Notes: generated from the letters alone by a model not told the origin. A stretch of 63,366 nucleotides of DNA from an uncultured Bacteroidales bacterium (GCA_964550205.1 CAZJYD010000008.1:1-63366); one strand, 5' to 3'. Shown: positions 5,728 to 47,553, counted from the stretch's first letter. Made by a program: numbers and translations.

Positions 5728-6795
5728 ATGTCGGTTACATATGGTAAAGATGATAAGTCTGCGATTCAGGCAAAGTTTGATGCCCAGAAGATATCATTTG
5801 GTCCTGTAATGTTTCATGCCGCCAAACTGCTCAGGGATTTAGGCATATTAAAAACCATAATAAAAAACAGGAAAGGTATAACTTTAGATGAAATTGCCAA
5901 ACAGTTGAATCTTTCCAGGTATGGTGTAAAAATATTGCTTGAAGCAGGCTTGAGCCTTGAATTGGTATGTGTTAAAAACGATTTGTATTACATAACAAAG
6001 ACGGGCTACTTTATTCTTAATGATGATCTGACAAGGGTAAATATGGACTTTACCAATGATGTAAATTATCTTGGAATGTTTAAGCTCAAAGAAAGTATCA
6101 TAAATCATGAACCGGAGGGACTAAAGATTTTTGGTGATTGGAATACAATATATGAGGCCTTAACAGAGCTTCCTGATAAAGTTCAAGAAAGCTGGTATAA
6201 GTTTGACCATTATTATTCTGATTATGCATTCCCGGAAATATTGCCGGTTGTTTTTGAAGATAAACCCCGAAAAATACTTGATGTTGGAGGTAACACAGGT
6301 AAGTTCGCAATAAAATGCGCCGAATATGATGATAATGTTGAAATAACAATACTTGATCTTCCCGGGCAAATAAATGATGCATTGAAAAATATCAGGAAAA
6401 ACAATATGGAAAACAGAATCAATACTCATACAATTAATCTTCTTGATCATTCCAAACCTTTTCCTGAGGGAGCGGATGTGATTTGGATGAGCCAGTTTTT
6501 GGATTGTTTTTCTCAGGATGATATTTACGAATTGCTTCTAAGGTCTTACAAAGCTATGTCGGAGGATTCATCTCTGTTTATTTTAGAAACATACTGGGAT
6601 AAACAAAGATTTAAAGCTTCAACCTATTCATTACATGCTACTTCATTATACTTTGCCTGTATTGCAAATGGTTGCAGCCAGATGTACCATTCGGAAGATT
6701 TATTAAATCTTATAGATAAGGCAAATATGAAAGTTGTTAAAGAAATTAATGATGTGGGGGTTAGTCATACACTATTTAAGTGCAAAAAGAAATAA
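5728..6795 (+). CDS. small-molecule O-methyltransferase-type class I SAM methyltransferase (OMT 1)
   Basis: Winged-helix-like N-terminal region plus SAM motif I ILDVGGNTG, with later acidic and aromatic motifs. Confidence 0.78.
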   Translation: MSVTYGKDDKSAIQAKFDAQKISFGPVMFHAAKLLRDLGILKTIIKNRKGITLDEIAKQLNLSRYGVKILLEAGLSLELVCVKNDLYYITKTGYFILNDDLTRVNMDFTNDVNYLGMFKLKESIINHEPEGLKIFGDWNTIYEALTELPDKVQESWYKFDHYYSDYAFPEILPVVFEDKPRKILDVGGNTGKFAIKCAEYDDNVEITILDLPGQINDALKNIRKNNMENRINTHTINLLDHSKPFPEGADVIWMSQFLDCFSQDDIYELLLRSYKAMSEDSSLFILETYWDKQRFKASTYSLHATSLYFACIANGCSQMYHSEDLLNLIDKANMKVVKEINDVGVSHTLFKCKKK

Positions 6796-6797
6796 TT

Positions 6798-10379: not shown

Positions 10380-11135
10380 ATGTCAATCTTCAGCAGGATA
10401 AATATTGCATTTCTCTTTGTTTTAATAATTACATTAATACTTTCATTTTGTTATAGTTACTGGTGGATTATTTTAATAGCTACTATTTCTTTTTATTTTG
10501 CTATTGTTATTTATGGCGTATTCAATATCAGATCGGGATTTTTTACAAAATCTTTGTATAAAGTAAAAACTGATAAAAATATTGTTTCACTTACTTTTGA
10601 TGATGGTCCTTGTGAGAACACATTACAGTTACTTGATGTATTAAAAAAACATAATGTAAAAGCAAGCTTTTTTTTAATTGGAGAAAAAATTGAAAAAAAA
10701 CCTCATATTGTAAAACGCATAATTGATGAGGGGCATTCTATTGGAAATCATTCGTATAGCCATAAAAACTGCTTTCCTTTTCTTTCGGTGAAAAAAATGT
10801 TTAATGACCTTCATAAAACAAGCAGTATAATCAATAAATATTGTGCTGATAATATTTATTTCAGGCCTCCTTTCGGTGTACTTAATCTCAATATTGTAAA
10901 GGCAGCCTCAAAAGCCGGTTTAATTATAGTTGGCTGGAGCATTCGATCTTATGATACAACCGGAAGAAAAAAAGAAAAGATACTTGATAAATTAAAGAAA
11001 AAGATATCAGGAGGAGATATAATTCTTTTTCATGATACAATAAAAAAAACCAACTTTATTGTAGATGAATTATGTGTTTATTTGAAAAAAAATAATTTTA
11101 TAGCTGTAAAGATCAACGAACTAAGTGATATATGA
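10380..11135 (+). CDS. NodB-type polysaccharide deacetylase with N-terminal membrane helices
   Basis: TFDDGP and GNHSYSH metal and catalytic motifs. Two hydrophobic N-terminal segments. Confidence 0.82.
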   Translation: MSIFSRINIAFLFVLIITLILSFCYSYWWIILIATISFYFAIVIYGVFNIRSGFFTKSLYKVKTDKNIVSLTFDDGPCENTLQLLDVLKKHNVKASFFLIGEKIEKKPHIVKRIIDEGHSIGNHSYSHKNCFPFLSVKKMFNDLHKTSSIINKYCADNIYFRPPFGVLNLNIVKAASKAGLIIVGWSIRSYDTTGRKKEKILDKLKKKISGGDIILFHDTIKKTNFIVDELCVYLKKNNFIAVKINELSDI

Positions 11136-11767
11136 AAAACCTGATGATATATATGGCTATCTTATTTTTACTTATAAATGATAGCAGCGGACAAGAGACT
11201 TTCAAACCGGTAATTGATAAAGATTCTGTTGAAAAAAGACTTATGGACGAATCCGGTAAAATTAATTCCATTAAAAGCAATTTTACCCAGGATAAACATC
11301 TCGAAAATCTGTCAATTGTTATCCGCTCGGAGGGTAATTTTTATTTTAGACAAGAAAATAAACTTAAATGGGAATATACCAGTCCGTATTATTATTTAAT
11401 ACTTATCAATGAAGGGAAGTTTACCATTAAGGATGAAAACAAAACAAATCAATATAATATTCAATCAAATAAAATTTTCAGGGAAATAAATAATATAATT
11501 ATTAATTCCGTTAACGGAACACTTATAAAATCAGGAGATTTCATAAGTAATTTCTTTGAAAATGAAAAAACATATCTGGTAAGATTGATTCCAAAAGATA
11601 AAAATATGTTGGAGATAATTACAGAAATATTTATCTATTTCTCAAAGAAGGACTATACTGTAGAAAAAATTAAAATTGTTGAACCCGGAGAAGATTATTC
11701 TGTTATTACGTTTTCAAATAAAGAAATTAATGCTGAGATACCTGACAAAATTTTTACTGTTAATTAG
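11132..11767 (+). CDS. LolA-like lipoprotein-carrier family protein
   Basis: Signal peptide, size, and an SNFTQ...GNFYF-type pattern. Sits between the deacetylase and the lipoprotein as in ape clusters. ATGA overlap with the upstream gene. Confidence 0.6.
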   Translation: MKNLMIYMAILFLLINDSSGQETFKPVIDKDSVEKRLMDESGKINSIKSNFTQDKHLENLSIVIRSEGNFYFRQENKLKWEYTSPYYYLILINEGKFTIKDENKTNQYNIQSNKIFREINNIIINSVNGTLIKSGDFISNFFENEKTYLVRLIPKDKNMLEIITEIFIYFSKKDYTVEKIKIVEPGEDYSVITFSNKEINAEIPDKIFTVN

Positions 11768-12392
11768 TATATTGAGCATATTATTTACCTCCTGCTCAAT
11801 TAGAAAAGGACTGATGAAAAACGAAGCCGGCTGTGATATCCCGGAACTTATAAAACCCATTATTAGTCAGCCATATGGTACAATATTTTATAAAGCATCT
11901 TTTTATGTCAGGAACATTAATTTAACGGGAATTTTTATTTTTAAGGATGTTGATACTTCTCAGAGAATTGTCTTTATTTCGGAGGTAGGCCTAAAATATT
12001 TTGACCTGGAATACAGCAATGATACATGGACAGTAGTAGATTGTAAAAAGTTTCTTGAAAATGAATGGTTGATAGGACAAGTAGAAAACTCTCTCAAGTT
12101 AATTATTGATGAAGTGCTAGTTGCAAAAAGGGCGAAATTATATAAGAAAAAAGAGAGTAATGAAAAGGGTTTATTATTTAAAAGGAAAAACAGTAAATAT
12201 TGTTTTTTGTGGAATAACAAAAACAAAATAACTGAAATAAGGTTAAAGGAGGGAATATTTAATCATTTAATTATGAAAGTTAATTCATATAAAGAAAATC
12301 TTCCTCGAAAAATATTGATAAACAACAGAAGTATAATTAACTTTAAAATTGAGCTTAAACTATTAAAAACAAACGATGATGTTATCAGGTGA
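11730..12392 (+). CDS. lipoprotein of unknown function
   Basis: From the ATG at 11730 the N-terminus is MLRYLTKFLLLISILSILFTSC (signal peptide plus lipobox Cys). Confidence 0.5.
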   Translation: MLRYLTKFLLLISILSILFTSCSIRKGLMKNEAGCDIPELIKPIISQPYGTIFYKASFYVRNINLTGIFIFKDVDTSQRIVFISEVGLKYFDLEYSNDTWTVVDCKKFLENEWLIGQVENSLKLIIDEVLVAKRAKLYKKKESNEKGLLFKRKNSKYCFLWNNKNKITEIRLKEGIFNHLIMKVNSYKENLPRKILINNRSIINFKIELKLLKTNDDVIR

Positions 12393-12744
12393 TTTCTTTA
12401 CATTCAAAATGAATTATAATAAAGAAGGATTAATTAAAGGACGTATTAATTTTAATAAAGATCATAATATCTTTAAAGGACATTTTCCTAAAAACCCAAT
12501 TGTTCCTGGTGTATGTCAAATTCAGGCTATTAAGGAAATAGCAGAATATATATTAGATAAAAATTTTATGCTTACCCGGGCCAGAAATATTAAATTCATT
12601 TCCATAATTAATCCTGTAGAAACACCCTTTGTTTATATGGAATTATCCTATGAATTTTTGGAAGATAACGAATTGGATATTAATTGTACTTTAATATTAG
12701 ATGATAAAGTATTTTTAAAATTCAGGGGTACATTTAGTGAATAA
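12376..12744 (+). CDS. FabZ-like 3-hydroxyacyl-ACP dehydratase
   Basis: GHFPKNPIVPGVCQIQAIKE matches the FabZ catalytic His and PGV motif. Confidence 0.8.
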   Translation: MMLSGDFFTFKMNYNKEGLIKGRINFNKDHNIFKGHFPKNPIVPGVCQIQAIKEIAEYILDKNFMLTRARNIKFISIINPVETPFVYMELSYEFLEDNELDINCTLILDDKVFLKFRGTFSE

Positions 12745-13915
12745 CAATAATTACATAAAGGAATTTAAAGATTATAAATGTTGTGTTGTTATCCCCACTT
12801 ATAATAATGCAACTTTAATATCACAGGTTCTTAATGATGTTATTAAATACACTAATGATGTAATTGTGGTTAATGATGGGTCTACTGATGATACGAGGGA
12901 AGTATTGAGTAAATATAAGATAATTGATGTTATTTCATATAAACAAAATAAGGGTAAAGGATATGCATTGCGCAAAGGTTTTGAATATGCCATACAAAAG
13001 GATTATAAATATGCAATTACAATGGATTCCGATGGTCAGCATTCTGCACATGACCTTCCTTTATTCATCGAAAAATTAAAATCGAAACCCGGTTCTTTAA
13101 TTATAGGAAGTAGGAATATGAAGAAAAAGGGAGTTCCGGGTAAAAGCAGCTTTGGAAATAAGTTTTCAAATTTTTGGTTTAAAGTTGAAACAGGTATTTC
13201 CCTGCCAGATACACAATCGGGTTTCAGACTTTATCCATTAGAAGAAATATCAAAATCACGATTGCATACAAATAAATTTGAATTTGAAATAGAGGTGCTG
13301 GTTAGATTTGCCTGGCGTGGTGTAAATATAGAAACTGTACCTGTAGATGTACACTACGCCAGAAAAGAAGATAGAATTTCTCATTTCAGGCCTTTTGTTG
13401 ATTTTACCCGTATTAGTATCTTAAATACGATACTTGTCTTTTTAGCGCTTTTTGTGCACAGGCCCAAGGCAGTTGTTAGAAAATACAAAAAAAAGAAGAT
13501 AAAGCAGATCATAAAGGAAGATATACTTGGGAGTAAGGAATCGAATCTTAAAATAGCTTCGGCTATTGGCTTTGGTGTGTTTATGGGAATTTTGCCAATA
13601 TGGGGCTATCAGCTTGCAGTTGGATTTGTTTTAGCTCATTTGCTTAAACTGAATAAGGGTATTTTTTTTATTGCTGCAAACATCAGCATACCGCCGATGA
13701 TTCCCTTGATTTTATATTTAAGCTTTGCAACAGGAGGTTATGTAATTGGCGAAGAACCGTGGACAATTAACTTGAGTAATATCAGTTTCGAAATGGTATA
13801 TGAAAACCTGCTTCAATATATTATTGGTAGTATTGTTTTTGCAGTGATAGCCGGTGCTTTTTTCTTTTTAGCAAGTTATTCTGTATTTATGATCACAAGA
13901 AACAAGAAGAAATAA
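12737..13915 (+). CDS. family 2 glycosyltransferase with C-terminal polytopic membrane domain
   Basis: VVIPTYNN and MDSDGQH (DxD) motifs. The C-terminal third is hydrophobic (DUF2062-like). GTG start. Confidence 0.82.
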   Translation: MNNNNYIKEFKDYKCCVVIPTYNNATLISQVLNDVIKYTNDVIVVNDGSTDDTREVLSKYKIIDVISYKQNKGKGYALRKGFEYAIQKDYKYAITMDSDGQHSAHDLPLFIEKLKSKPGSLIIGSRNMKKKGVPGKSSFGNKFSNFWFKVETGISLPDTQSGFRLYPLEEISKSRLHTNKFEFEIEVLVRFAWRGVNIETVPVDVHYARKEDRISHFRPFVDFTRISILNTILVFLALFVHRPKAVVRKYKKKKIKQIIKEDILGSKESNLKIASAIGFGVFMGILPIWGYQLAVGFVLAHLLKLNKGIFFIAANISIPPMIPLILYLSFATGGYVIGEEPWTINLSNISFEMVYENLLQYIIGSIVFAVIAGAFFFLASYSVFMITRNKKK

Positions 13916-16900
13916 ATGATTTACTTGTTCAATTCAATATACAGCTACTTCAGTAAAAACAGATTATTATTTGTTTTTTTTCTTATCGTTATTATTGCTT
14001 TTATTGTAATCTTCGCAAGCCGTATTAAGCTTGAAGAAAATGTTAATGCAATAATACCTGATGATAAAAACCTGAACAAAATAAGCCGCGTTATTGAAAG
14101 CTCCGAAATATCCGATCAGATAATAATAAATATCAGCTTATCGGATACTTCCCTTGTATTACCTGATAGCCTGATCCGCTTTGCTGATAATTTATCCGCA
14201 AAACTTGATACTAACATACTTATTGAGGAATTAACATATAAAATTGATGAAAGCTTGTATTCTCAGGTTTATGATATTTTTTTTAATTATCTTCCTTTTT
14301 TCCTGGATAGTAGCGATTATGAGGATATAGCAAACAGATTAACTAATGATGAAATAGAAAATAATATTAAAAATGATCTGAAAGTGTTGATTTCACCTTC
14401 GGGAATAGTAACCAAGAAATACATATATAAAGATCCTTTGAACATAGTACCTTTAGTGTTAAGAAAACTGGAAAAGTTCAGATTTGGTGATAGTTTTATT
14501 ATTTATGATTCCCGCATATTCTCGAAAAATAAAAAACATTTACTTCTTTTTATAAATCCGGAATATTCATCTGCTAATACCTCAAAAAATACAGTTCTGA
14601 TAGAAGATATAGAAAATGCCATAAACAATAACTCAGAAGAGTTTATAGGGATTGATGCGGAGTATTATGGAGGGACGGCTGTTGCGGCAGCAAATGCAAA
14701 ATGTATTAAAAGAGATATTATTATTACGGTATCAATAGCGGTTATTATCTTGATTCTGGTTTTCATAATTATCTTCAGGAGGATAAGGATCTTTTTCTTG
14801 CTCTTTCTACCTGTTATTATAGGAGCAGGTGTTTCAATAGCCATACTATCAATAACAGAAGATAAAATCTCAGCAATATCATTGGGGATAGGAGCTGTGT
14901 TGGTCGGAATTACTATTGATTATTCCTTACATCTTTACACGCATTTTCGTAATTCCGGTTCTGTATCCCGATCCTTGAAAAATGTTTCACAACCGATATT
15001 AATGAGCAGCATAACAACTGCTTCTGCATTTTTATGTCTGTTGCTGATTAAGTCGGATGCGCTGAATGATCTTGGTAAGTTTGCTGCCCTGAGTGTTGTT
15101 GTATCTGCTTTGTTTGTTTTGTTATTTATACCTGTATTTTTAAAAAGAAAAGATAGCAGTATTTCCGGTAGAAAGAGAAAGACAATTTTTGACCGTTTTG
15201 TTGCTTTTAAATTTCATAGAAGTAAAATAATTATAATACTAATTGTTGTTTTATCAGTAGTATTTGCTTTTACATTAAAAAACATCAGGTTCAACAGCGA
15301 TATTTCAACCCTTAATTACATGCCTGATAAGTTGAAAGAAGCGGAAGAAAATTTAAAAAAAATAAGCTCGCAAACATATGGTGCAATGTATATTCTTTCT
15401 TTGGGGGATGATCTGAACTCTGCATTGGAAAACTCAGAAAAACATAATGCAATTCTGGATGATAAGAAATATAAAGATTTTTATTATGATGTAACTTCTG
15501 CTTCAGATCTGCTTTTATCAAAAAATATGCAGATAAAGAAAATAAAGCAATGGTCGGATTTTTGGAAAGATCAGGGAAAAGAAAGAGTAATAAACACGAT
15601 CAAAGAAAAAGGTAAAAAGTATCATTTTAAGGAAAAAGCCTTCAGGCAGTTTTATCACATTCTTAATAAAGAATTTAAACCTGTTGATGATTCGGTATTC
15701 AATCCCATGAAAAAGATGTTTCTGAAAAACTACATTACTGAATTTGATAGTGGTATGTCTGTTGTCTCAATATTGAAAGTAGACAGATCAAACAAAGACA
15801 AATTATTTGATGAACTTGAAGATCAGGATAATCTTATTTTCTTTGATCAGCTATACTTAACGAACCGCCTTTTCAAAATATTAAAAGACGATTTCAATAT
15901 GCTGGTGACAATTTCTCTGATAGTGGTATTTGTTATCATGTTAGTTTTCCTTGGAAGGATTGAACTGACAATTATTGCATTCACACCATTGATCATTAGC
16001 TGGCTCTGGACATTAGGACTTATGGGTATATTTAATCTTGAATTCAATATTTTTAATATAATTGTTTCCAGCTTTATTTTCGGATTGGGTATTGACTACT
16101 GTATTTTTATAATGCGTGGTTTACAGAATGATTATAAGGAAGGAAAAACAGAACTGCCATCATATAAGTTATCTATATTGATTTCTGCGATTACCTCAAT
16201 TACAGGTTTTGGAATACTTATTTTAGCAAATCATCCGGCATTAAGATCAATTGCATTAGTTTCACTGGTAGGTATTTCGGCAATACTTTTTATTTCATAT
16301 GCAATTCTGCCGTTTTTATTTTCTGCGCTTGTATCCGGAAATCAAAGAACAGGCCAAGGTCCTGTTACTATTGGAAGTCTGTTTTTTTCGCTTACAACTA
16401 TTATCATTTTTCTTATTGGATCTTTTTTATTAACGTTATTAGTACCTTTATTAAAGATACTTCCGTTACCTAATAAAACAGCAAAGCATTTGCATCATAT
16501 TGCTCTATGCTATGTAATGCGTTTTCTGGTTTATTTTAATATTAATACAAAAAAAATATTTATTAATAGAGGAAAACTTGATTTTTCCAAACCATCCGTG
16601 ATCATAAGCAACCATCAGTCGCAGCTTGATCTGTCGCTTACAATTATGCTTAATCCTAAGATTGTTGTGCTTACAAATGAATGGGTCTGGAATAGCCCGT
16701 ATTTTGGACATATTATAAAATATTCTGATTATGTGCCTCTTTATAGAGGATTGGAAAAGGGATATACAAGATTAAAAAAAGTTATACAAAATGGTTATTC
16801 GGTTCTTATTTTTCCCGAAGGTTCCAGAACACCGGATGGCAGAATAAAAAGATTTCATCAGGGGGCATTTAAGCTGGCTGATATGTATAACCTCGAAATT

Positions 16901-17749
16901 CAGCCCATTATGATACATGGTGCATTTCATTGCCTCAATAAGCATGAATTCTTTTTACGTAAGGGAAAAATAACCGTTAAAATATTTGACAGGGAAAAAT
17001 TACGTAAACGAAGTGAAGATGAAGTTACTTATAGAAATCATGCCATAGAATACAATAAGTTCTACCGGGAAGAATATGATAAACTAAGAAAAAGCATAGA
17101 AACACCTGATTACTTTAAGAGGCGGTTAATAAATCAATTCATATACAAAGGAGTTGAATTGGAATGGTATCTGAGAATTAAGCTTAGATTTGAAAAAAAC
17201 TACAATTTATTTAATGATGTGATTCCGCGGGATTGTAAGATAGTTGACATAGGCTGCGGATACGGATTTTTAGATTTTATGCTTAATTATATCTCAGATA
17301 AAAGAATAATACATGGAATAGACTATGATGAAGAAAAGATAAATACAGCAAAATCTATTGCAAAGCACTTTAAGAGTATTAAATTTTCTGAGACTGATAT
17401 AACACAAATTGAAATACCTGAAAGTGAGGTATATATTTTAAACGATGTGCTTCATTATATCCCTGAGCAAAAACAGTTATCAATACTGCGGGAATGCATG
17501 AATAAAATTCCGGCAAACGGAATGATAATAGTCAGGGATGCTGATAAAGATATGCAAAAGAGGATTAAAGGAACCAAAGCGATAGAGTTTTTATCAACAA
17601 AGGTTATTAAATTTAATAAAACAAAATATAAGAATCTGTCATTTATTTCAGGTGTCAGGATAATATCATTGGCACAAGAAAACGGATTAAGCGTTGAACG
17701 TATAGATAATACCAAATATACATCCGATATTATCTATATCATAAAATAA
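13916..17749 (+). CDS. fusion protein: MMPL/RND-type exporter + PlsC-type acyltransferase + class I SAM methyltransferase
   Basis: Two clusters of transmembrane helices separated by soluble loops (about aa 1-800). HX4D NHQSQLD (nt 16613-16630), FPEGSR (16811-16828), and SAM motif I VDIGCGYG (17243-17266). One uninterrupted ORF. Confidence 0.82.
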   Translation: MIYLFNSIYSYFSKNRLLFVFFLIVIIAFIVIFASRIKLEENVNAIIPDDKNLNKISRVIESSEISDQIIINISLSDTSLVLPDSLIRFADNLSAKLDTNILIEELTYKIDESLYSQVYDIFFNYLPFFLDSSDYEDIANRLTNDEIENNIKNDLKVLISPSGIVTKKYIYKDPLNIVPLVLRKLEKFRFGDSFIIYDSRIFSKNKKHLLLFINPEYSSANTSKNTVLIEDIENAINNNSEEFIGIDAEYYGGTAVAAANAKCIKRDIIITVSIAVIILILVFIIIFRRIRIFFLLFLPVIIGAGVSIAILSITEDKISAISLGIGAVLVGITIDYSLHLYTHFRNSGSVSRSLKNVSQPILMSSITTASAFLCLLLIKSDALNDLGKFAALSVVVSALFVLLFIPVFLKRKDSSISGRKRKTIFDRFVAFKFHRSKIIIILIVVLSVVFAFTLKNIRFNSDISTLNYMPDKLKEAEENLKKISSQTYGAMYILSLGDDLNSALENSEKHNAILDDKKYKDFYYDVTSASDLLLSKNMQIKKIKQWSDFWKDQGKERVINTIKEKGKKYHFKEKAFRQFYHILNKEFKPVDDSVFNPMKKMFLKNYITEFDSGMSVVSILKVDRSNKDKLFDELEDQDNLIFFDQLYLTNRLFKILKDDFNMLVTISLIVVFVIMLVFLGRIELTIIAFTPLIISWLWTLGLMGIFNLEFNIFNIIVSSFIFGLGIDYCIFIMRGLQNDYKEGKTELPSYKLSILISAITSITGFGILILANHPALRSIALVSLVGISAILFISYAILPFLFSALVSGNQRTGQGPVTIGSLFFSLTTIIIFLIGSFLLTLLVPLLKILPLPNKTAKHLHHIALCYVMRFLVYFNINTKKIFINRGKLDFSKPSVIISNHQSQLDLSLTIMLNPKIVVLTNEWVWNSPYFGHIIKYSDYVPLYRGLEKGYTRLKKVIQNGYSVLIFPEGSRTPDGRIKRFHQGAFKLADMYNLEIQPIMIHGAFHCLNKHEFFLRKGKITVKIFDREKLRKRSEDEVTYRNHAIEYNKFYREEYDKLRKSIETPDYFKRRLINQFIYKGVELEWYLRIKLRFEKNYNLFNDVIPRDCKIVDIGCGYGFLDFMLNYISDKRIIHGIDYDEEKINTAKSIAKHFKSIKFSETDITQIEIPESEVYILNDVLHYIPEQKQLSILRECMNKIPANGMIIVRDADKDMQKRIKGTKAIEFLSTKVIKFNKTKYKNLSFISGVRIISLAQENGLSVERIDNTKYTSDIIYIIK

Positions 17750-17756
17750 TAATGAT

Positions 17757-19250
17757 ATGAACATATCTGAAACTGTTATTATTGTGGGCAGCGGGCTTGG
17801 TGGTTTATTATGTGGAAATATATTAAGCAAGGAAGGCTACAGGGTGATTGTTCTTGAGAAACATTCTCAGATAGGTGGTAATCTGCAAACTTTTAAAAGG
17901 AACGGGTGCGTCTTTGATACAGGAATGCACTATATAGGATGCATGGATGAAGAGCAGATATTACACAAGATCTTTTCTTATCTTGATATAACTGATAAAC
18001 TAAAGCTGAGAAAACTTAATAAAAATGCCTTTGATATAATTGGTTTCCCGGATAAGGATTATAATTACGCTATGGGATTTGATAATTTTGAGAACATATT
18101 AACTCAATATTTTTTTGAAGAAAAAAGATCAATACATGAATATGTTGGAAGGATTAAGTCGGTATGGGACAAATTAAACATAGTTAATTTAAGAGATGTA
18201 TCAGGTGATGCTAAGTTTTATGAATCTCAAAATGTAAACACCTATGATTTCCTTGATTCACTATTCTCTAATAAGAGATTAAAGGCGGTTCTTGCCGGTA
18301 ACAATTTATTATATGGAGGGATCAAAGAAAAATCTTCTTTGTTTGTTCATGCACTCATCATGAATTATTTTATCAGAAGTTCCTACAGAATAGCTGGTGG
18401 ATCATCAGTATTGGCAGAAATTATAAAAAATAATATTGAAAAAAACGGTGGATCAGTGTATACAAATCAGGAGGTCGTAAAATTGATTAGTAAAGATAAC
18501 AGAATTAAGGCAGCTCAGGTGAAAAATAAACACAAGCATTATGGTGATATATTTATCTCTAATATACATCCTTTGTTAACTAATGATATTACTGATCAAA
18601 ACATATACAGGAAGGCACGATTTAACAGAATAAAAAGACTTAAAAATACTGTATCAGCATTTTCTGTATATATTGTATTGGAAAAATTTAAATTACGATA
18701 TTTCAATTCAAATTATTATTATAATAAAACTGATGATGTGTGGCAGGCAAATAATTACGCTACCGGAGATTGGCCATTATGCTATTTATTGTATATGACT
18801 CCTGATAGTGACAATCCTGAATATGCTGAAAGTATAACTATTATAACCACTATGCGTTTTGAAGAAGTAAAAAAATGGGAGAATACCAATATAGGAAAAA
18901 GGGGTAATGATTATATTGAGTTTAAAAGAAAAAAGGCAAATATTATTTTTGATTTAGTCAATAATAAATATCCGGGAATAAGAAATTTTATAAAAAATTA
19001 TTATACGGCAACTCCACTTACATATAGGGATTATACGGGAACTGTTGACGGTACTATGTATGGTCTGGTTGAAGATCATAAAAGTCCTCACGGGTCTTAT
19101 GTTTCATCCAAAACAAGAATGCCTAATTTGTTTTTAACGGGTCAAAATGTAAATTTACATGGTATGCTCGGGGTTACTATAACTTCTTTAACAACATGCG
19201 GGAATATTATTGATATCAATTCTATAATTAGAAAAATTAAAGTAAAATAA
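17757..19250 (+). CDS. FAD-dependent oxidoreductase, phytoene-desaturase (CrtI)-like
   Basis: IVGSGLGGLLCG...VLEKHSQIGGN dinucleotide-binding signature, ~500 aa. Confidence 0.78.
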   Translation: MNISETVIIVGSGLGGLLCGNILSKEGYRVIVLEKHSQIGGNLQTFKRNGCVFDTGMHYIGCMDEEQILHKIFSYLDITDKLKLRKLNKNAFDIIGFPDKDYNYAMGFDNFENILTQYFFEEKRSIHEYVGRIKSVWDKLNIVNLRDVSGDAKFYESQNVNTYDFLDSLFSNKRLKAVLAGNNLLYGGIKEKSSLFVHALIMNYFIRSSYRIAGGSSVLAEIIKNNIEKNGGSVYTNQEVVKLISKDNRIKAAQVKNKHKHYGDIFISNIHPLLTNDITDQNIYRKARFNRIKRLKNTVSAFSVYIVLEKFKLRYFNSNYYYNKTDDVWQANNYATGDWPLCYLLYMTPDSDNPEYAESITIITTMRFEEVKKWENTNIGKRGNDYIEFKRKKANIIFDLVNNKYPGIRNFIKNYYTATPLTYRDYTGTVDGTMYGLVEDHKSPHGSYVSSKTRMPNLFLTGQNVNLHGMLGVTITSLTTCGNIIDINSIIRKIKVK

Positions 19251-19369: not shown

Positions 19370-20680
19370 ATGATTATTCCTGCGATTGAGAAAAAAACGT
19401 TTAAGGAAATTGATGAATATCAGGAAAAAAGGCTTAAGGTTACTTTAGACTATATAAATAATAAATCAGTATTTTATCAATCATTTTTCAAAAAAAATAA
19501 AATTGATATATCAAAAATTAATACCCTTGAAGATATATCTTTTATTAAACCAACTACAAAATCCGATTTACAAAAAAATAATATGAATTTCCTGTGTGTT
19601 GACCGTAAACAAGTAATAGATTATAATACAACTTCAGGAACAACGGGAGATCCGGTTACCTTTGCCACAACGGAAAATGATCTTAAACGACTCGAATATA
19701 ATGAATACCTGTCATTTCTGTGTGCTAACGGAACCAGGGAGGATATTTATCAGATCATTGTTACGCTCGACAGAAGATTCATGGCAGGATTAGCATATTT
19801 TATGGGTGCAAGAAGGTTGGGGGCAGGAGTCGTTCGAGTGGGTCCGGGTAACCCGGAGCTGCATTTCGATACTATAAACAGGATTAAACCTACTTCACTT
19901 GTTACGGTTCCGTCTTTCATATTAAAACTTATAGATTATGCTGAAAAAAATAATATTGATTATAAAAATTCTTCGGTTAAGTCAGCGATTTGTATAGGCG
20001 AGCCTATCAGGAATATTAACCTGGATTACAATGTACTGGGAAGAAAAATATTATCAAAATGGAATTTACAATTGTTTTCAACCTATGCTTCTACAGAGAT
20101 GGGTGCGGCCTTTACTGAATGTATTGAAGGCAAGGGGGGACATCATCATCCAGAATTGTTAATAGTAGAATTTTTAGATAGTAATGATAATCCTGTCAAT
20201 GAGGGGGAAATCGGAGAATTAACAGTAACCACATTGGGTGTGGAAGCTATGCCTATGCTGCGATTCAAAACCGGGGATGTTTGCAAACATTACAAAGAAC
20301 CTTGCAAATGTGGCAGAAACACTATAAGAATTGGCCCTATACTTGGTAGAAAAAATCAAATGATAAAGTATAAGGGTACTACATTATATCCTTCTGCGTT
20401 TTATGATATTTTGAATGAGATAAGCGGAGTGAATACTTATGTAATTGAGTTATCAACAAGTAATATTAATACTGATGAAATACTTATTAAAATAGGCACT
20501 GAACGCAGAGATGAAGAATTGATAAAAAGAATAAAGAATCATTTCAGGGCCAAGTTAAGGGTTGCACCTGCTATTGAACTGTTTACAACTGAAGAAATAA
20601 CAAAGCTCCAATTTCCAAAAAACAGCAGAAAGGCCATCAAATTCATTGATAAAAGAAAAAATGCGTTTAATGGATGTTGA
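19370..20680 (+). CDS. PaaK/F390-synthetase-type adenylate-forming enzyme (aryl acid-CoA/ACP ligase)
   Basis: TSGTTGDPV adenylation motif, ~435-aa short ANL architecture typical of phenylacetate-CoA-ligase-like enzymes. Confidence 0.78.
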   Translation: MIIPAIEKKTFKEIDEYQEKRLKVTLDYINNKSVFYQSFFKKNKIDISKINTLEDISFIKPTTKSDLQKNNMNFLCVDRKQVIDYNTTSGTTGDPVTFATTENDLKRLEYNEYLSFLCANGTREDIYQIIVTLDRRFMAGLAYFMGARRLGAGVVRVGPGNPELHFDTINRIKPTSLVTVPSFILKLIDYAEKNNIDYKNSSVKSAICIGEPIRNINLDYNVLGRKILSKWNLQLFSTYASTEMGAAFTECIEGKGGHHHPELLIVEFLDSNDNPVNEGEIGELTVTTLGVEAMPMLRFKTGDVCKHYKEPCKCGRNTIRIGPILGRKNQMIKYKGTTLYPSAFYDILNEISGVNTYVIELSTSNINTDEILIKIGTERRDEELIKRIKNHFRAKLRVAPAIELFTTEEITKLQFPKNSRKAIKFIDKRKNAFNGC

Positions 20681-21824
20681 TAAAGAAATAGAATCACTGC
20701 GTCCTTATAAGAACTCAGAAGTTGCGGACGCAATTAACAGATTGATTTCACATCCCGGATTTGAAAGAATATGTAAATATTTATATCCCGGCCATTCAAC
20801 AAAAAAATTAATAGAATTACTTAGGAGTATTAATACTCTTGATGGATTTCAGAGTAAATTTTCACATGATGCAATTAAAACCGTACTTAAAAGAACATCA
20901 GACGGACTAACATATACAGGGATTAATAAACTTACTAAAAACCAGGGATATTTATTCATTGCAAATCACAGGGATATTATTCTGGATTCTGCTTTTATGG
21001 AATTGGCACTGGTAGAGAACAGATTTCCCACAACGCAAATCGCATTTGGCTCAAACCTTATGGCGAACCAGTTAATCACTGATCTGGCAAGACTTAATAA
21101 AGTTTTTATCATAAATAGAGGTGGTTCCAAAAAGGAAATATTTGAAAATACTTTGTTACGTTCAAAGTATATTCATAAGGTGGTTATTGAAAATAATGAA
21201 TCATTATGGATTTCACAAAGAAACGGCAGAACAAAAAACGGTGATGATAAAACACAAAGAGGATTGTTAAAAATGCTTGTCGGACCGCAAAATAATATAA
21301 TTCAAACCTTAATGAGATTGAATGTAATTCCGGTTACAATTTCATATGAGTATGAGCCCTGCGATATAGAGAAAGCTATTGAATTGTACATTTCTAAAAA
21401 AGCTAAATACAGGAAAAGCAAGAATGAAGATATAAATAGTATGCTGTCCGGAATCGTTAATCATAAAGGTCGCATGCATCTGACTTTTGGAAAACCTTTA
21501 AATGATGCACTTGAAAAAATGAAGGATGACAAACTCTTGCCGAATGATATATTTAACAACGCAGTGAATACTATCGATAACCAGATGTATAAGAATTACA
21601 AATTATGGAAAACAAATTACATTGCCTGGGACAAACTGAATAATAGCAAAAGATTTAATAATAAATATACCGAAGAAGAAAAGGAAAAATTTATAAATTA
21701 CCTGAATAACAAGATTAACAAAACTGATTTCACCTCAGAAAAAAATGAAATAGAAAGATTAATGATGGAAATATATTCCAATCCTGTTAATAATCTTGAT
21801 AAACTAGCCAACGTATTTTCCTGA
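20661..21824 (+). CDS. PlsC/LPLAT-type acyltransferase
   Basis: HX4D motif ANHRDIILD. Start uncertain: TTG 20646, ATG 20661 or ATG 20670. Confidence 0.75.
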   Translation: MRLMDVDKEIESLRPYKNSEVADAINRLISHPGFERICKYLYPGHSTKKLIELLRSINTLDGFQSKFSHDAIKTVLKRTSDGLTYTGINKLTKNQGYLFIANHRDIILDSAFMELALVENRFPTTQIAFGSNLMANQLITDLARLNKVFIINRGGSKKEIFENTLLRSKYIHKVVIENNESLWISQRNGRTKNGDDKTQRGLLKMLVGPQNNIIQTLMRLNVIPVTISYEYEPCDIEKAIELYISKKAKYRKSKNEDINSMLSGIVNHKGRMHLTFGKPLNDALEKMKDDKLLPNDIFNNAVNTIDNQMYKNYKLWKTNYIAWDKLNNSKRFNNKYTEEEKEKFINYLNNKINKTDFTSEKNEIERLMMEIYSNPVNNLDKLANVFS

Positions 21825-23110: not shown

Positions 23111-23743
23111 ATGAAACCTGATTTGTATATTAGTAAATATGTCATAATAAGGAATAATAAAGTTTATGTTAATGGAGCACTGTTAATAGACAAGCAAAAC
23201 GAAATGCTTAAGTTCAGGCAATTTGCTAAGTCTGTTTATTCCTTTTATAACGTAAAATATCCGAAATATTTTAAAATGGATAATCATTGCAAACTTGGAT
23301 TTTTGGGAACAGAAATACTACTTCAGGATTTTTCTCTTTACAAATATAAACCCGATCAAATAGGAATAATTCTAAGTAATTCCGAATCATCATTATATAC
23401 TGACAGGGAATACCAAAAGTCTATAAATAATATACCAAGTCCTGCTCTTTTTGTTTATACGCTCCCTAATATACTTTTGGGTGAGGTTTGTATAAGAAAT
23501 AAAATAATGGGAGAAAATATCTTTTTTATTAATGAAAAATTTGATGCATCTGCTATTATGAATAATCTCGATCTGTTATTCAGTTATACAGATACATGCT
23601 TATGTATAACCGGTTGGGTAAATTTTGCAGATCCGGATAATTATGATTCAGTAGTTTATTTGGTTAGAAATGAAAAGGGTGATGATGATTTACTTGAATG
23701 CAATGTAGGTAACCTTAATAATATTTATAATTTTAGATTGTAA
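23111..23743 (+). CDS. KS N-terminal-like half-domain protein, no catalytic motifs
   Basis: 210 aa. LGFLGTEILL and PSPALFVYTLPN blocks resemble thiolase-fold N-halves, with no Cys/His/His motifs. Confidence 0.45.
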   Translation: MKPDLYISKYVIIRNNKVYVNGALLIDKQNEMLKFRQFAKSVYSFYNVKYPKYFKMDNHCKLGFLGTEILLQDFSLYKYKPDQIGIILSNSESSLYTDREYQKSINNIPSPALFVYTLPNILLGEVCIRNKIMGENIFFINEKFDASAIMNNLDLLFSYTDTCLCITGWVNFADPDNYDSVVYLVRNEKGDDDLLECNVGNLNNIYNFRL

Positions 23744-26887: not shown

Positions 26888-26915
26888 TGTCTGAATTGAG
26901 ACATTGTATTTTTGC

Positions 26916-28253: not shown

Positions 28254-28276
28254 TTCTCGATTATTATTTTAATAAT

Positions 28277-28305: not shown

Positions 28306-28319
28306 TTTATAATTCCTTA

Positions 28320-46662: not shown

Positions 46663-47553
46663 ATGACTTCATGGAAAGGTAAAAGCAGAGGAGGTGTTCT
46701 TGGAACCAGAATTTTTATTCTAATTCTTAAAAGATTTAATATATCTCTCGCTTATTTTGTCTTGTATTTTGTTGCTTTTTATTACTTGATCTTTACTGAA
46801 AGATCAGGGATCAGGTATTATTTTAGAACGATCTTAGGGTATCCTCTAATAAAAACCTACTGGAGTATTTATAGAAATTATTATAAATTCGGTCAGGTGT
46901 TATTAGATAAGGTTGCTGTTCTTGCCGGCTTTTCTGATAAATTTACTTTTAATTTTGATGGTGAGAATTATCTACGTACTTCTGTTGGAGAGAATCATGG
47001 AGGAGTACTTATAGGAGCACATTTAGGTAATTGGGAAATAGCAGGACAACTACTTGAACGGCTGGATACAAATATTAATATTGTAATGTTTGATGCCGAA
47101 GAAAGAGGGATAAAGGAATTGTTGAATGATGTGTTGGTGAAGAAAACTGTTAAAATAATATTTATAAAAGAAGATAGCTTTTCTTATTTGCATGAAATCA
47201 GCAATGCTCTTGAAAATAAAGAAATTGTAGCTATTCATGGTGACAGATTTTTAAAGGGGCATAAATATACCGAATGTCTATTTATGGGTAAAAATGCAAA
47301 GTTTCCTACAGGCCCATTCTATTTAGCTATGAAATATCAAGTACCTGTGTTTTTTGTTAATGCAATGAAAGAAACCTCCACCCATTATCACTTTTATTCG
47401 ACCGAAGCCAAAATTTATCCTTATCCTTCAAAACTTAATGAAAGAAACCTAATAGTGAATAAAATGATTAAAGATTATACTAATGAATTGGAAAGAATTC
47501 TCAGAAAATACCCTTTGCAATGGTTTAATTATTATAATTTCTGGTATCAATAA
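46663..47553 (+). CDS. LpxL/HtrB-family (lipid A late acyltransferase-like) acyltransferase
   Basis: N-terminal membrane anchor, GAHLGNWE (HX4E) motif, ~295 aa. Confidence 0.72.
   Translation: MTSWKGKSRGGVLGTRIFILILKRFNISLAYFVLYFVAFYYLIFTERSGIRYYFRTILGYPLIKTYWSIYRNYYKFGQVLLDKVAVLAGFSDKFTFNFDGENYLRTSVGENHGGVLIGAHLGNWEIAGQLLERLDTNINIVMFDAEERGIKELLNDVLVKKTVKIIFIKEDSFSYLHEISNALENKEIVAIHGDRFLKGHKYTECLFMGKNAKFPTGPFYLAMKYQVPVFFVNAMKETSTHYHFYSTEAKIYPYPSKLNERNLIVNKMIKDYTNELERILRKYPLQWFNYYNFWYQ

What the first reader, a model, noticed from the sequence alone, without database searches (positions are those of the whole stretch)
13916..17749. Single 1277-aa ORF fusing an MMPL exporter, a PlsC-type acyltransferase and a SAM methyltransferase
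Seen: one uninterrupted ORF with three parts. About aa 1-800 has two transmembrane bundles with large loops (MMPL/RND-like) and two extra helices. An acyltransferase module follows with HX4D NHQSQLD (nt 16613-16630) and FPEGSR (16811-16828). A class I methyltransferase module with VDIGCGYG (17243-17266) completes it. Established: in described ape clusters the exporter, the LPLAT acyltransferase and the methyltransferase are separate proteins. Inference: the fusion would physically couple lipid-anchor acylation and methylation to export, which is unusual for an RND/MMPL protein.
Basis: partly seen in the sequence, partly recalled or inferred. Interest (0 to 1): 0.65.

Follow-up and report, generated by a model that had tools for sequence, protein, structure and literature searches.

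The report
FlxU-type exporter–acyltransferase–methyltransferase fusion protein
The three-part gene is real and intact, but it is the standard "FlxU" gene of flexirubin pigment clusters found across the phylum Bacteroidota. The fusion was noted in 2014 and is already named in RefSeq, and only its biochemistry, especially what its methyltransferase part methylates, remains unknown.

Summary
Observation confirmed. ORF 13916-17749 (+) encodes 1277 aa without stops and every quoted motif sits at the stated coordinates. Pfam supports MMPL, PlsC-type acyltransferase and class I methyltransferase modules above their curated thresholds. Contigs from two separate metagenome runs span both junctions without indels.

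The fusion is not unusual. At least 498 species-level genomes encode a relative. In 80 of 80 loci examined all three modules share one reading frame. Gene order (GT2-DUF2062, fusion, CrtD-like oxidoreductase) is conserved up to Chitinophaga pinensis. This is FlxU (Cpin_1873). Schoner et al. [quoted passage not shown] Refinements:
- The transporter is a 12-helix HpnN/MmpL-like RND protein.
- The "two extra helices" are PlsC's own membrane-anchoring two-helix motif.
- The acyltransferase is the window's only ApeD counterpart.
- The methyltransferase is not the ape-cluster methyltransferase. ApeB's orthologue is a separate gene (5728-6795). The fused module has no counterpart in the E. coli ape cluster and its methyl acceptor is unknown.

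Verdict: a divergent new member (51% identity or less) of a known but biochemically uncharacterised family. Interest is low to moderate.

The parts
13916..17749 (+). Complete ORF, 1277 aa, orthologue of FlxU (trifunctional MMPL transporter / LPLAT acyltransferase / class I SAM methyltransferase)
13916..16348 (+). RND/MMPL transporter module (aa 1-811). TM1 is aa 16-34, periplasmic domain 1 is aa 38-252, TM2-6 is aa 253-403, TM7 is aa 437-456, periplasmic domain 2 is aa 463-643 and TM8-12 is aa 645-811.
   Evidence: Pfam MMPL. NCBIfam best hits are HpnN/HAE3, below their cut-offs. AF2 model pLDDT 84.5. Foldseek gives HpnN 5KHN at E 1.8e-20 and TM 0.62-0.64. PDB sequence search gives HpnN 6WU0 at 3.5e-11. 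ApeM matches at 21% identity, E 1.4e-14.
14918..14923 (+). Asp335-Tyr336 in TM4, a candidate proton-relay pair
   Evidence: D335 in 118/119 and Y336 in 111/119 homologues. The role is inferred from the MmpL3/HpnN literature (own knowledge).
16094..16099 (+). Asp727-Tyr728 in TM10, a candidate proton-relay pair
   Evidence: D727 in 119/119 and Y728 in 117/119 homologues
16370..16537 (+). Two helices after TM12: aa 819-848 is hydrophobic and aa 853-874 is amphipathic and K/R-rich. Together they are the PlsC-type two-helix membrane-anchoring motif.
   Evidence: AF2 secondary structure. Hydropathy and charge statistics. Foldseek alignment covers all of PlsC 5KYM, 241/241 residues, TMt 0.82.
16547..17020 (+). 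LPLAT/PlsC-type acyltransferase core (aa 878-1035), counterpart of ApeD. HX4D is at 16613-16630 and FPEGSR at 16811-16828.
   Evidence: PF01553 at 4.1e-17. PlsC 5KYM at 1.4e-12 by sequence. ApeD at 25% identity, E 1.5e-13, the only window protein that hits ApeD. H900, D905 and E968 in 119/119 homologues.
17021..17221 (+). Helical linker and cap (aa 1036-1102) with the conserved motif YKGPxLEWYxRxKLxxExxY. It is probably the substrate-binding lid of the methyltransferase.
   Evidence: Four helices in the AF2 model. Y1085 and K1089 are invariant. Mean pairwise identity is 47%.
17222..17746 (+). Class I (Rossmann) SAM-dependent methyltransferase core (aa 1103-1277). Motif I, VDIGCGYG, is at 17243-17266. 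The methyl acceptor is unknown.
   Evidence: Methyltransf_31/25/2/11/12. Foldseek matches small-molecule class I MTs. D1111, G1113, G1115, D1136 and H1180 in 119/119 homologues. No hit to any E. coli Ape protein.
12737..13915 (+). Upstream neighbour, GT2-DUF2062 glycosyltransferase (FlxT-like, matches the N-terminal half of ApeJ). Its stop codon abuts the fusion's ATG.
   Evidence: Present in 62/80 related loci.
17757..19250 (+). Downstream neighbour, CrtD/phytoene-desaturase-like FAD oxidoreductase (FlxV-like)
   Evidence: Present in 63/80 related loci.
5728..6795 (+). Separate O-methyltransferase-family gene, the true ApeB orthologue (aryl head-group methyltransferase)
   Evidence: 45% identity over the full length to E. 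coli ApeB, E 8e-121. Dimerisation2 + Methyltransf_2 domains, as in ApeB.
10380..11767 (+). Polysaccharide deacetylase (10380-11135) and LolA-like carrier (11132-11767), presumed partners in anchor tailoring and periplasmic transit
46663..47553 (+). LpxL-type acyltransferase (FlxE-like), matches the C-terminal half of ApeJ
   Evidence: Lip_A_acyltrans. 25.5% identity over 298 aa to ApeJ aa 258-549, E 5e-25.

Best explanation
The gene is the orthologue of FlxU, the exporter component of flexirubin-type aryl-polyene pigment clusters of Bacteroidota. It sits in a gene set of about 48 kb that reads as a complete flexirubin-type cluster.

Shown here: it is one polypeptide with three parts. The first is a 12-helix RND/MMPL transporter of the HpnN/MmpL lipid-exporter type, with conserved Asp-Tyr pairs in TM4 and TM10. 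The second is a complete PlsC-like acyltransferase unit, including PlsC's two-helix membrane anchor and intact HX4D and FPEGxR motifs. The third is a class I SAM methyltransferase with an intact SAM-binding motif and a conserved helical cap.

Inferred mechanism: TM12 of an RND protein ends in the cytoplasm, so the PlsC unit sits on the cytoplasmic face of the inner membrane beside the transporter. Like its homologue ApeD, it would transfer an ACP- or CoA-bound acyl chain onto a lyso-glycerolipid-type acceptor of the pigment's membrane anchor. The methyltransferase would add a methyl group to an unidentified acceptor on the same lipid. The proton-motive-force-driven MMPL part would then extract the finished lipid from the inner membrane and pass it to the LolA-like periplasmic carrier for delivery to the outer membrane. 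The fusion keeps the last tailoring steps next to the export site.
For: Identity and reality of the fusion: ORF, motifs, domains; two independent assemblies, no indels; more than 100 full-length homologues with the same three Pfam domains. One search found at least 498 species genomes across Bacteroidota orders, including C. pinensis. One search found 80/80 loci in one frame. One search found 478 clusters at E<=1e-30, and 115 of the best 150 are about 1,280 aa. One search shows conserved synteny. Searches give the RefSeq/UniRef name and the 2014 FlxU annotation.

Cluster context: searches found a TAL-like lyase, AMP ligase, KS/CLF pairs, ACP, KR, DH, TE, DarB-like KAS III, an Ntn hydrolase, a LolA-like protein, a deacetylase and GT2-DUF2062.

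Modules look functional: catalytic residues are present in 119/119 sequences and conservation is comparable between modules (MT 47%, AT 52%, TM bundles 52-64%).

Folds: PlsC 5KYM TMt 0.82-0.83, full-length alignment; class I MT; 12 TM helices; HpnN, then MmpL4/5/3.

Role mapping: the AT module is the window's only hit to ApeD, the MMPL part matches ApeM, and ApeB's orthologue is a separate gene. ApeD's proposed role (acylating sn-2 of a lysophosphatidylglycerol) and ApeM's (export) come from bioRxiv 10.1101/2020.12.19.423268 and PMC8253772.

Topology: the loop after TM12 is K/R-rich (mean 3.8 K+R), helix aa 853-874 is amphipathic (mean 4.6 K+R), and helix aa 819-848 is hydrophobic.
Against: No member of this family has been assayed. 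No paper on FlxU/Fjoh_1078 function was found. The acyl donor, acyl acceptor and methyl acceptor are all unknown. Published flexirubin and APEL structures contain no methyl group beyond the aryl-ring methyls credited to ApeB-type enzymes, so the MT module has no assigned product. Similarity to ApeD is modest (25% over 159 aa), and the protein is below the NCBIfam cut-offs for PlsC, HpnN and HAE3. The cytoplasmic placement of AT and MT is therefore inferred and not observed. At least one lineage carries AT-MT as a stand-alone gene (L083/L084), so covalent fusion is not obligatory.
Confidence: 0.8

Rival explanations
1. The long ORF is an artefact: a mis-assembly, a missed stop codon or a frameshift joins what are really two or three separate genes.
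For: Depth is low (about 7x word depth). One related metagenome contig (L085) does show the gene broken by a frameshift.
Against: Two independently assembled contigs from different samples span both junctions with no gaps. 80/80 related loci have all three modules in one frame. 115 of the best 150 representative clusters are about 1,280 aa. In L085 the homologous sequence continues across the frameshift, so that contig is a damaged fusion and not a split.
Confidence: 0.01
2. The fused methyltransferase is the ape/flexirubin aryl head-group methyltransferase (the ApeB function) moved onto the exporter. Ring methylation would then be coupled to export.
For: An in vitro study of the Xenorhabdus enzyme suggested that methylation happens after polyene assembly (cited in PMC8253772). 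The MT domain also gives a Methyltransf_2 (O-methyltransferase) Pfam hit.
Against: A full-length ApeB orthologue (45% identity, E 8e-121) is encoded separately at 5728-6795, and a second Methyltransf_2 gene lies at 50283-51374. The fused MT hits no Ape protein at E<=1. It also lacks ApeB's dimerisation domain.
Confidence: 0.08
3. The acyltransferase module forms the flexirubin ester bond itself. It would transfer the aryl-polyenoyl chain from ACP onto the phenolic hydroxyl of the dialkylresorcinol, and would not acylate a lyso-glycerolipid anchor.
For: The enzyme that makes this ester has not been identified, and Schoner et al. only proposed FlxW. PlsC-type enzymes make O-esters from acyl-ACP or acyl-CoA. 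The cluster encodes DarB-like ketosynthases. Placing that step at the exporter would make sense.
Against: The module's nearest characterised relatives are ApeD and PlsC, which act on lyso-glycerophospholipids (bioRxiv 10.1101/2020.12.19.423268). ApeD-type enzymes also occur in clusters with no dialkylresorcinol genes, such as E. coli. The cluster has two other acyltransferases (20646-21824 and 46663-47553) and an Ntn hydrolase/AAT protein that could do this step.
Confidence: 0.15
4. The methyltransferase fold is a non-catalytic SAM-binding or scaffolding domain, for example one that regulates export according to SAM level.
For: No methylated product is known that would need it.
Against: Motif I, the beta-2 acidic residue (D1136), H1180 and a conserved substrate-cap motif are invariant across sequences of 34-51% identity. 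The domain is as conserved as the acyltransferase. That pattern is typical of an active enzyme.
Confidence: 0.05

Closest known systems
FlxU (Cpin_1873) of Chitinophaga pinensis and Fjoh_1078 of Flavobacterium johnsoniae. [quoted passage not shown]
   Same: It has the same three-module architecture and length (about 1,280 aa). Homology runs full length: 38% identity to the C. pinensis locus L046 and 43% to the named protein WP_262324637.1. It holds the same position between GT2-DUF2062 (FlxT) and the phytoene-desaturase-like gene (FlxV) in a flexirubin-type cluster.
   Different: It is a divergent member, with the closest database relative only 51% identical (a Salinivirgaceae MAG). The surrounding cluster carries extras not listed for the reference clusters: three B12/radical-SAM proteins, a sulfotransferase and a second OMT.
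ApeM + ApeD of the E. coli CFT073 / Xenorhabdus doucetiae aryl-polyene (APEL) cluster
   Same: The MMPL part is homologous to ApeM (E 1.4e-14) and the AT part to ApeD (E 1.5e-13). The cluster logic is shared: KS/CLF, ACP, DH, KR, TE, GT2, LolA-like carrier and an ApeB-type methyltransferase.
   Different: In E. coli they are two separate proteins (772 and 273 aa), six genes apart. There is no equivalent of the fused methyltransferase, the polysaccharide deacetylase or the CrtD-like oxidoreductase. Conversely, E. coli ApeJ (GT2 + LpxL-like acyltransferase) is split into two genes here.
HpnN hopanoid transporter (PDB 5KHN, 6WU0) and the mycobacterial MmpL3/4/5 lipid exporters
   Same: They share the fold: 12 TM helices and two periplasmic domains (Foldseek E 1.8e-20, TM about 0.62). 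HpnN is also the best NCBIfam match. The Asp-Tyr pairs in TM4 and TM10 are conserved. All of them move lipids from the inner membrane towards the outer envelope.
   Different: Sequence identity is only 12-15%. The score is far below the HpnN and HAE3 family cut-offs (119.5 against 751.85 bits). None of the solved relatives carries fused enzyme domains. MmpL4/5 instead dock a free acyl carrier protein (AcpM), as the PDB titles show.
PlsC, 1-acyl-sn-glycerol-3-phosphate acyltransferase of Thermotoga maritima (PDB 5KYM)
   Same: The whole PlsC fold is matched, including the N-terminal two-helix membrane motif (241/241 residues aligned, TMt 0.82-0.83). The HX4D and FPEGxR motifs are present.
   Different: Identity is 19-20%. 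The score is below the TIGR00530 cut-off (61.8 against 102.95). The unit is tethered to TM12 of a transporter and followed by a methyltransferase. Its substrate is unknown.
LplT-Aas-type fusions (NCBIfam NF006386, acyl-[ACP]--phospholipid O-acyltransferase, 1147 aa)
   Same: This is a precedent for a membrane transporter fused to a PlsC-family acyltransferase that acts on lyso-phospholipids. The profile matches aa 826-1004 (E 4.7e-11).
   Different: The transporter there is of the MFS type and imports or flips lysolipids for re-acylation (own knowledge). The third module there is an acyl-ACP synthetase and not a methyltransferase.

Membership tests
FlxU-type trifunctional MMPL/LPLAT/methyltransferase family | Single polypeptide of about 1,280 aa with MMPL, PF01553 acyltransferase and class I methyltransferase modules in that order | tested here: met
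FlxU-type trifunctional MMPL/LPLAT/methyltransferase family | Full-length homology to named or described members | tested here: met
   100% coverage and 43% identity to WP_262324637.1, which carries the 'trifunctional...' name. 38% identity over aa 4-1277 to the C. pinensis locus L046.
FlxU-type trifunctional MMPL/LPLAT/methyltransferase family | Position in a flexirubin-type cluster between GT2-DUF2062 (FlxT) and the phytoene-desaturase-like gene (FlxV) | tested here: met
.
FlxU-type trifunctional MMPL/LPLAT/methyltransferase family | Required for flexirubin-type pigment production or export | not testable with these tools
   Only indirect evidence exists: a fragment Fjoh_1078-1089 complemented a pigment-negative mutant (McBride 2009, as cited in PMC3992019).
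RND superfamily, MMPL/HpnN-like lipid exporters | 12 TM helices in two bundles, with large periplasmic domains after TM1 and TM7 | tested here: met
   AF2 model. Foldseek to HpnN, MmpL3/4/5 and Patched.
RND superfamily, MMPL/HpnN-like lipid exporters | Conserved charged or polar proton-relay residues in TM4 and TM10 | tested here: met
   D335-Y336 and D727-Y728 are conserved in 111-119 of 119 sequences. Their function is inferred from MmpL3/HpnN work (own knowledge).
HpnN (TIGR03480 / NF052374) or HAE3 (TIGR00921) equivalogs | Score above the curated family cut-off | tested here: not met
   119.5 against 751.85 bits, 53.5 against 1100, and 114.1 against 351.9. It is related to these families but is not a member.
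LPLAT / PlsC acyltransferase superfamily (PF01553) | HX4D catalytic motif and the FPEGxR (motif III) acceptor-binding motif | tested here: met
   H900...D905 and F966-P-E-G-S-R971. H900, D905 and E968 are invariant. Pfam score is above the gathering threshold.
LPLAT / PlsC acyltransferase superfamily (PF01553) | PlsC fold with the N-terminal two-helix membrane-association motif | tested here: met
   Foldseek to 5KYM with 241/241 residues aligned and TMt 0.82-0.83
PlsC proper (TIGR00530, 1-acylglycerol-3-phosphate O-acyltransferase) | Score above the curated cut-off; LPA as acceptor | tested here: not met
   61.8 against 102.95 bits. The acceptor cannot be tested with these tools.
Class I SAM-dependent methyltransferases | Rossmann fold, motif I (D/E)xGxGxG, and an acidic residue at the end of beta-2 | tested here: met
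   VDIGCGYG at aa 1110-1117 and D1136, both invariant. Fold confirmed.
ApeB-type aryl head-group methyltransferase | Homology to ApeB, including the N-terminal dimerisation domain plus Methyltransf_2 | tested here: not met
   No BLAST hit to ApeB at E<=1. The separate gene at 5728-6795 is the ApeB orthologue.
ApeD-type LPLAT of aryl-polyene clusters | Homology to ApeD and location in an APE-type cluster | tested here: met
   25% identity over 159 aa, E 1.5e-13. It is the only window protein that hits ApeD. Whether the substrates are the same was not testable.

The most novel reading that the evidence does not exclude
The fused methyltransferase is invariant in its catalytic residues, is restricted to the Bacteroidota version of the cluster, and has no counterpart in the E. 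coli ape cluster. It may therefore methylate the lipid anchor and not the chromophore, for example an amine or hydroxyl of a head group exposed by the co-clustered polysaccharide deacetylase. On that reading, flexirubin-type clusters would make a still undescribed methylated pigment-lipid, and FlxU would act as a built-in assembly line that acylates, methylates and then exports it. The deacetylase link is my speculation. It rests only on the co-occurrence of the two genes in Bacteroidota clusters and their joint absence from the E. coli cluster.
Probability: 0.25. Interest if true: 0.5.

Novelty: new member of a known kind. Interest (0 to 1): 0.25.

Why it matters
Aryl-polyene and flexirubin clusters are described as among the most widespread biosynthetic gene clusters in Gram-negative bacteria, and their pigments protect cells against oxidative stress. 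How the pigment is anchored to a lipid and moved to the outer membrane is still only a proposal. FlxU-type proteins place an ApeD-like acyltransferase and an extra methyltransferase on the exporter itself. That makes them a convenient single target for dissecting the coupling of lipid tailoring to export in Bacteroidota. The window's copy adds a divergent sequence but no new principle, because the architecture was recorded in 2014 and is named in RefSeq. The useful new points are modest. The fused methyltransferase is not the ApeB function, so an unassigned methylation step exists. The 'extra helices' are PlsC's membrane anchor. Relative to E. coli, ApeM and ApeD are fused while ApeJ is split.

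Tried and rejected
I folded aa 770-1277 and aa 1-820 separately, so the relative placement of the enzyme domains and the transporter could not be examined, and no model coordinates are returned in any case.
I solved this by aligning the window segment with full-length database proteins.
- Literature searches for 'trifunctional MMPL family transporter', FlxU/Fjoh_1078/Cpin_1873 and the APPE family found only one taxonomic paper that uses the name, the 2014 cluster paper, and general RND reviews. None is a functional study.
- I looked for natural split forms among the short hits of the exhaustive search. Most are contig-edge fragments (two start with V or L). L085 is a frameshifted fusion. Only L083/L084 look like a true stand-alone AT-MT gene, and their contigs end 76 nt upstream, so the neighbouring gene is unknown.
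- I tried to infer the methyl acceptor from solved relatives. The best sequence hits are phosphoethanolamine N-methyltransferases, but only at E 1e-5 to 1e-6 over the SAM-binding core. The best fold hits are assorted small-molecule C-, O- and N-methyltransferases. The invariant His in 'NDVLHY' aligns with the His in the 'ILH' of the Plasmodium enzymes, but to my knowledge similar His-containing motifs are common in class I methyltransferases. I rejected this as evidence of substrate class.
- The second acyltransferase (20646-21824) was tested as a possible ApeD or ApeJ counterpart, or a paralogue of the fused AT. It shows no significant similarity to any of them.
- I could not test for intermediate architectures (MMPL-AT without MT), because the search tools list only the top 120-150 hits.

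Full report
**1.
The window contains one open reading frame at 13916-17749 on the + strand. It has an ATG start, encodes 1277 aa and has no internal stop. An in-frame stop lies directly upstream at 13913-13915. That stop is also the stop codon of the preceding gene, so the two genes abut.
- HQSQLD at nt 16613-16630
- FPEGSR at nt 16811-16828
- VDIGCGYG at nt 17243-17266

Pfam supports all three modules above their gathering scores:
- MMPL, 1.1e-20, in two stretches
- Acyltransferase PF01553, 4.1e-17, aa 891-1000
- Methyltransf_31, 1e-13, aa 1106-1216, plus several sibling methyltransferase families

**2. It is not an assembly artefact.**
The sequence is found in two microbial-mat metagenome runs from different samples. 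Their independently assembled contigs cover 13700-17900 and 13700-17618 with no gaps and one substitution each. One substitution changes N237 to S and the other is synonymous. The architecture is also conserved in many other genomes, as section 3 shows.

**3. The fusion is the rule in Bacteroidota.**
- A search of 5.8 billion proteins gave 1114 hits at E<=1e-10. The best 120 are 38-51% identical. All but a few, which are truncated or slightly shorter, are about 1,260-1,320 aa, and all carry the same three Pfam domains.
The best 80 cover residues ~1-1277. They come from Bacteroidales, Marinilabiliales, Chitinophagales (including Chitinophaga pinensis), Sphingobacteriales, Cytophagales, Flavobacteriales and Saprospirales.
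- In 80 of 80 of these loci the three modules lie in a single stop-free frame. The median stop-to-stop length is 1288 aa.
- An exhaustive HMMER search with only the acyltransferase-methyltransferase part (aa 811-1277) found 478 representative clusters at E<=1e-30. Of the best 150, 115 are at least 1200 aa long with the match at about 815-1280.
- The 35 shorter hits have a continuous spread of lengths and always reach the C-terminus, as expected for contig-edge fragments. Two of them start with V or L.
- One apparent split (L085) is a frameshifted fusion.
- One lineage (L083/L084) seems to have a genuine stand-alone AT-MT gene. It starts exactly at the loop after TM12 and is followed by the usual FAD oxidoreductase. 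The contigs end 76 nt upstream, so nothing can be said about its neighbour.

**4. The fusion is already described and named.**
[quoted passage not shown]'.
- A 2026 taxonomic paper lists that full name for flexirubin-cluster gene 'U (78)', meaning FlxU / Fjoh_1078 in the nomenclature of Schoner et al. 2014 (PMC12968099).
- Table S4 of Schoner et al. [quoted passage not shown] - I found no functional study of the protein.

**5. The window gene is the positional orthologue of FlxU.**
The order dehydratase, GT2-DUF2062, fusion, CrtD-like FAD oxidoreductase is conserved in C. pinensis, Mucilaginibacter, Labilibaculum, Sporocytophaga, Carboxylicivirga and a Flavobacteriales MAG. GT2-DUF2062 is present in 62 of 80 loci and the oxidoreductase in 63 of 80; several of the loci are short contigs that may end before these genes.

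The surrounding genes make up a complete flexirubin-type set from about 5.7 to 53.7 kb:
- an ApeB-like methyltransferase, a thioesterase and an ACP
- two KS/CLF pairs and further KS genes
- a polysaccharide deacetylase, a LolA-like carrier and dehydratases
- an AMP ligase and a ketoreductase
- DarB-like KAS III genes
- an Ntn-hydrolase/AAT protein and BtrH_N proteins
- an LpxL-type acyltransferase
- an aromatic amino-acid ammonia-lyase

**6. Anatomy of the protein.**
The model of aa 1-820 (pLDDT 84.5, pTM 0.77) has the canonical RND layout:
- TM1, aa 16-34
- periplasmic domain, aa 38-252
- TM2-6, aa 253-403
- TM7, aa 437-456
- second periplasmic domain, aa 463-643
- TM8-12, aa 645-811

Its closest solved structures are the hopanoid transporter HpnN (Foldseek E 1.8e-20, TM about 0.62-0.64; phmmer 3.5e-11), followed by the mycobacterial MmpL4/5 and MmpL3. 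Asp-Tyr pairs in TM4 (D335-Y336) and TM10 (D727-Y728) are conserved in 111-119 of 119 homologues. By analogy with MmpL3 and HpnN (my own knowledge), they are the likely proton-relay residues.

The model of aa 770-1277 is confident (pLDDT 91.9, pTM 0.87). It contains:
- TM12
- a hydrophobic helix, aa 819-848
- an amphipathic K/R-rich helix, aa 853-874
- an alpha/beta acyltransferase fold
- a four-helix linker or cap, aa 1040-1102
- a Rossmann methyltransferase fold

Foldseek aligns 241 of 241 residues of T. maritima PlsC (5KYM) to it, with a TM-score of 0.82-0.83 on the target. The two 'extra helices' are therefore PlsC's own N-terminal two-helix motif. In PlsC that motif anchors the enzyme to one membrane leaflet (my knowledge of the 5KYM work). 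The methyltransferase domain resembles assorted small-molecule class I methyltransferases, with no clear indication of substrate.

**7. All three modules look active.**
Across 119 sequences, H900, D905, E968, D1111, G1113, G1115, D1136, H1180 and D727 are present in every one. Mean pairwise identity is similar between modules:
- TM8-12, 64%
- TM2-6, 52%
- acyltransferase core, 52%
- linker or cap, 47%
- methyltransferase core, 47%

**8. Correspondence with the characterised aryl-polyene system.**
I fetched the E. coli CFT073 ape cluster and compared its proteins with the window's.

| E. coli protein | Window counterpart | Evidence |
|---|---|---|
| ApeM | MMPL part of the fusion | 21% identity, E 1.4e-14 |
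| ApeD (LPLAT) | AT module of the fusion | 25% identity over 159 aa, E 1.5e-13; the window's only hit to ApeD |
| ApeB (methyltransferase) | separate gene 5728-6795 | 45% identity over the full length, E 8e-121 |
| ApeJ, N-terminal half | GT2-DUF2062 gene, 12737-13915 | E 7e-36 |
| ApeJ, C-terminal half | LpxL-type acyltransferase, 46663-47553 | E 5e-25 |

The fused methyltransferase matches no Ape protein. So, relative to E. coli, ApeM and ApeD are fused, ApeJ is split, and the methyltransferase module is an addition. The polysaccharide deacetylase, the CrtD-like oxidoreductase and a second PF01553 acyltransferase (20646-21824) likewise have no E. coli counterpart.

**9. Most likely mechanism.**
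Work on Xenorhabdus and E. coli proposes the following (bioRxiv 10.1101/2020.12.19.423268; PMC8253772):
- ApeD acylates sn-2 of a lysophosphatidylglycerol on the cytoplasmic face.
- ApeJ adds the sugar and then the aryl polyene.
- ApeB methylates the aryl ring.
- ApeM, with LolA/LolB-like proteins, moves the finished lipid to the outer membrane.

Transferring this to FlxU gives the following model, which is inference:
1. TM12 of an RND protein ends in the cytoplasm, and the following loop is K/R-rich. The PlsC unit therefore sits on the cytoplasmic face beside the transporter.
2. The PlsC unit acylates a lyso-glycerolipid-type acceptor of the pigment anchor.
3. The methyltransferase modifies an unidentified position on that lipid.
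4. The proton-driven MMPL part extracts the lipid and hands it to the LolA-like carrier.

A cytoplasmic location also fits the need for acyl-ACP or acyl-CoA and for SAM. The donors, the acceptors and the exact membrane disposition of helix 819-848 are not shown.

**10. Rivals.**
- An artefact is excluded (section 2).
- The idea that the fused methyltransferase performs the ApeB ring methylation is unlikely, because a full ApeB orthologue is present separately.
- The acyltransferase could instead form the flexirubin ester between the polyene acid and the dialkylresorcinol. That enzyme is unidentified, since Schoner et al. only suggested FlxW. I cannot exclude this and give it about 0.15.
- A non-catalytic methyltransferase fold is unlikely, given the invariant catalytic and cap residues.

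**11. Verdict.**
The fusion is genuine and probably couples tailoring to export, but it is not unusual. It is the standard, already annotated FlxU of flexirubin clusters, present in hundreds of Bacteroidota species. The window's copy is a divergent new member (51% identity or less) of a known but biochemically uncharacterised family. The one open question worth pursuing is what the fused methyltransferase methylates.

Noticed in passing
window 26904-33329 and 50283-53731: The flexirubin-type cluster carries extras not listed for the reference clusters. There are three B12-binding/radical-SAM proteins (26904-28253 +, 31902-33329 -, 52466-53731 +; the first is closest to the hopanoid C-3 methylase HpnR). 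There is also a sulfotransferase (51371-52456) next to a second O-methyltransferase (50283-51374), and two enoyl-CoA hydratases and a thioesterase beside a DarB-like KAS III. Together these suggest additionally C-methylated and/or sulfated products.
   Followed up: partly
window 12737-13915 and 46663-47553, compared with L082:7713-9389: E. coli ApeJ (GT2 + LpxL-like acyltransferase, 558 aa) corresponds to two separate genes here. GT2-DUF2062 matches ApeJ aa 4-232, and a Lip_A_acyltrans protein 33 kb away matches ApeJ aa 258-549. So fusion and fission went in opposite directions for ApeM+ApeD and for ApeJ.
   Followed up: yes
L083:78-1493 and L084:76-1491: A stand-alone 471-aa acyltransferase-methyltransferase gene (37% identical to the window's AT-MT part) starts exactly at the loop after TM12 and is followed by the usual FAD oxidoreductase. 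Two contigs from different samples both break about 76 nt upstream of it, which is unexplained.
   Followed up: partly
L085:1-1721: In this metagenome contig the fusion is interrupted by a frameshift just after TM12. The homologous sequence continues from frame 1 into frame 3. It is probably a sequencing error or a pseudogene and not a natural split, yet the gene caller reports a 476-aa 'protein' that is the best database hit to the window's AT-MT part.
   Followed up: yes
window 20646-21824: A second PF01553 acyltransferase (392 aa) has no NCBIfam family and no detectable similarity to ApeD, ApeJ or the fused AT module. It is conserved next to the AMP ligase in Labilibaculum and Carboxylicivirga loci. 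Its function is unknown.
   Followed up: partly
window 11676-12392, 23111-23743, 26088-26732, 6780-7235: Four cluster ORFs have no Pfam match. The 238-aa ORF overlaps the LolA-like gene by 92 nt, so its TTG start is probably set too early. The ORFs at 11676, 23111 and 6780 recur in related loci (15, 24 and 25 of 80). The ORF at 6780 weakly matches the ApeP dehydratase. The ORF at 26088 has no match in the 80 loci.
   Followed up: partly
L025 and L066: Two loci carrying the full fusion are labelled as Chlorobiota and Hyphomicrobiales MAGs. In L025 none of the usual neighbours were found within 10 kb. This could be mis-binning or horizontal transfer.
   Followed up: no
Foldseek list (PDB 9mw0, 9rfu, 9dp6, 9u51, 9s2u): Several recent structures show mycobacterial MmpL4/5 transporters in complex with the acyl carrier protein AcpM. 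This is a non-covalent precedent for docking lipid-biosynthesis components onto an MMPL exporter.
   Followed up: no
window 55453-57975: A single 840-aa ORF combines FeoA with FeoB (N, cytosolic, Gate and C domains). It lies just outside the pigment cluster.
   Followed up: no
window 143-5058: Four sugar-nucleotide genes lie directly upstream of the pigment cluster: a UDP-glucose/GDP-mannose dehydrogenase, an NAD-dependent epimerase/dehydratase, an RmlD-like reductase and a phosphoglucomutase/phosphomannomutase. They could supply the sugar for the GT2-DUF2062 step or belong to an unrelated polysaccharide locus.
   Followed up: no
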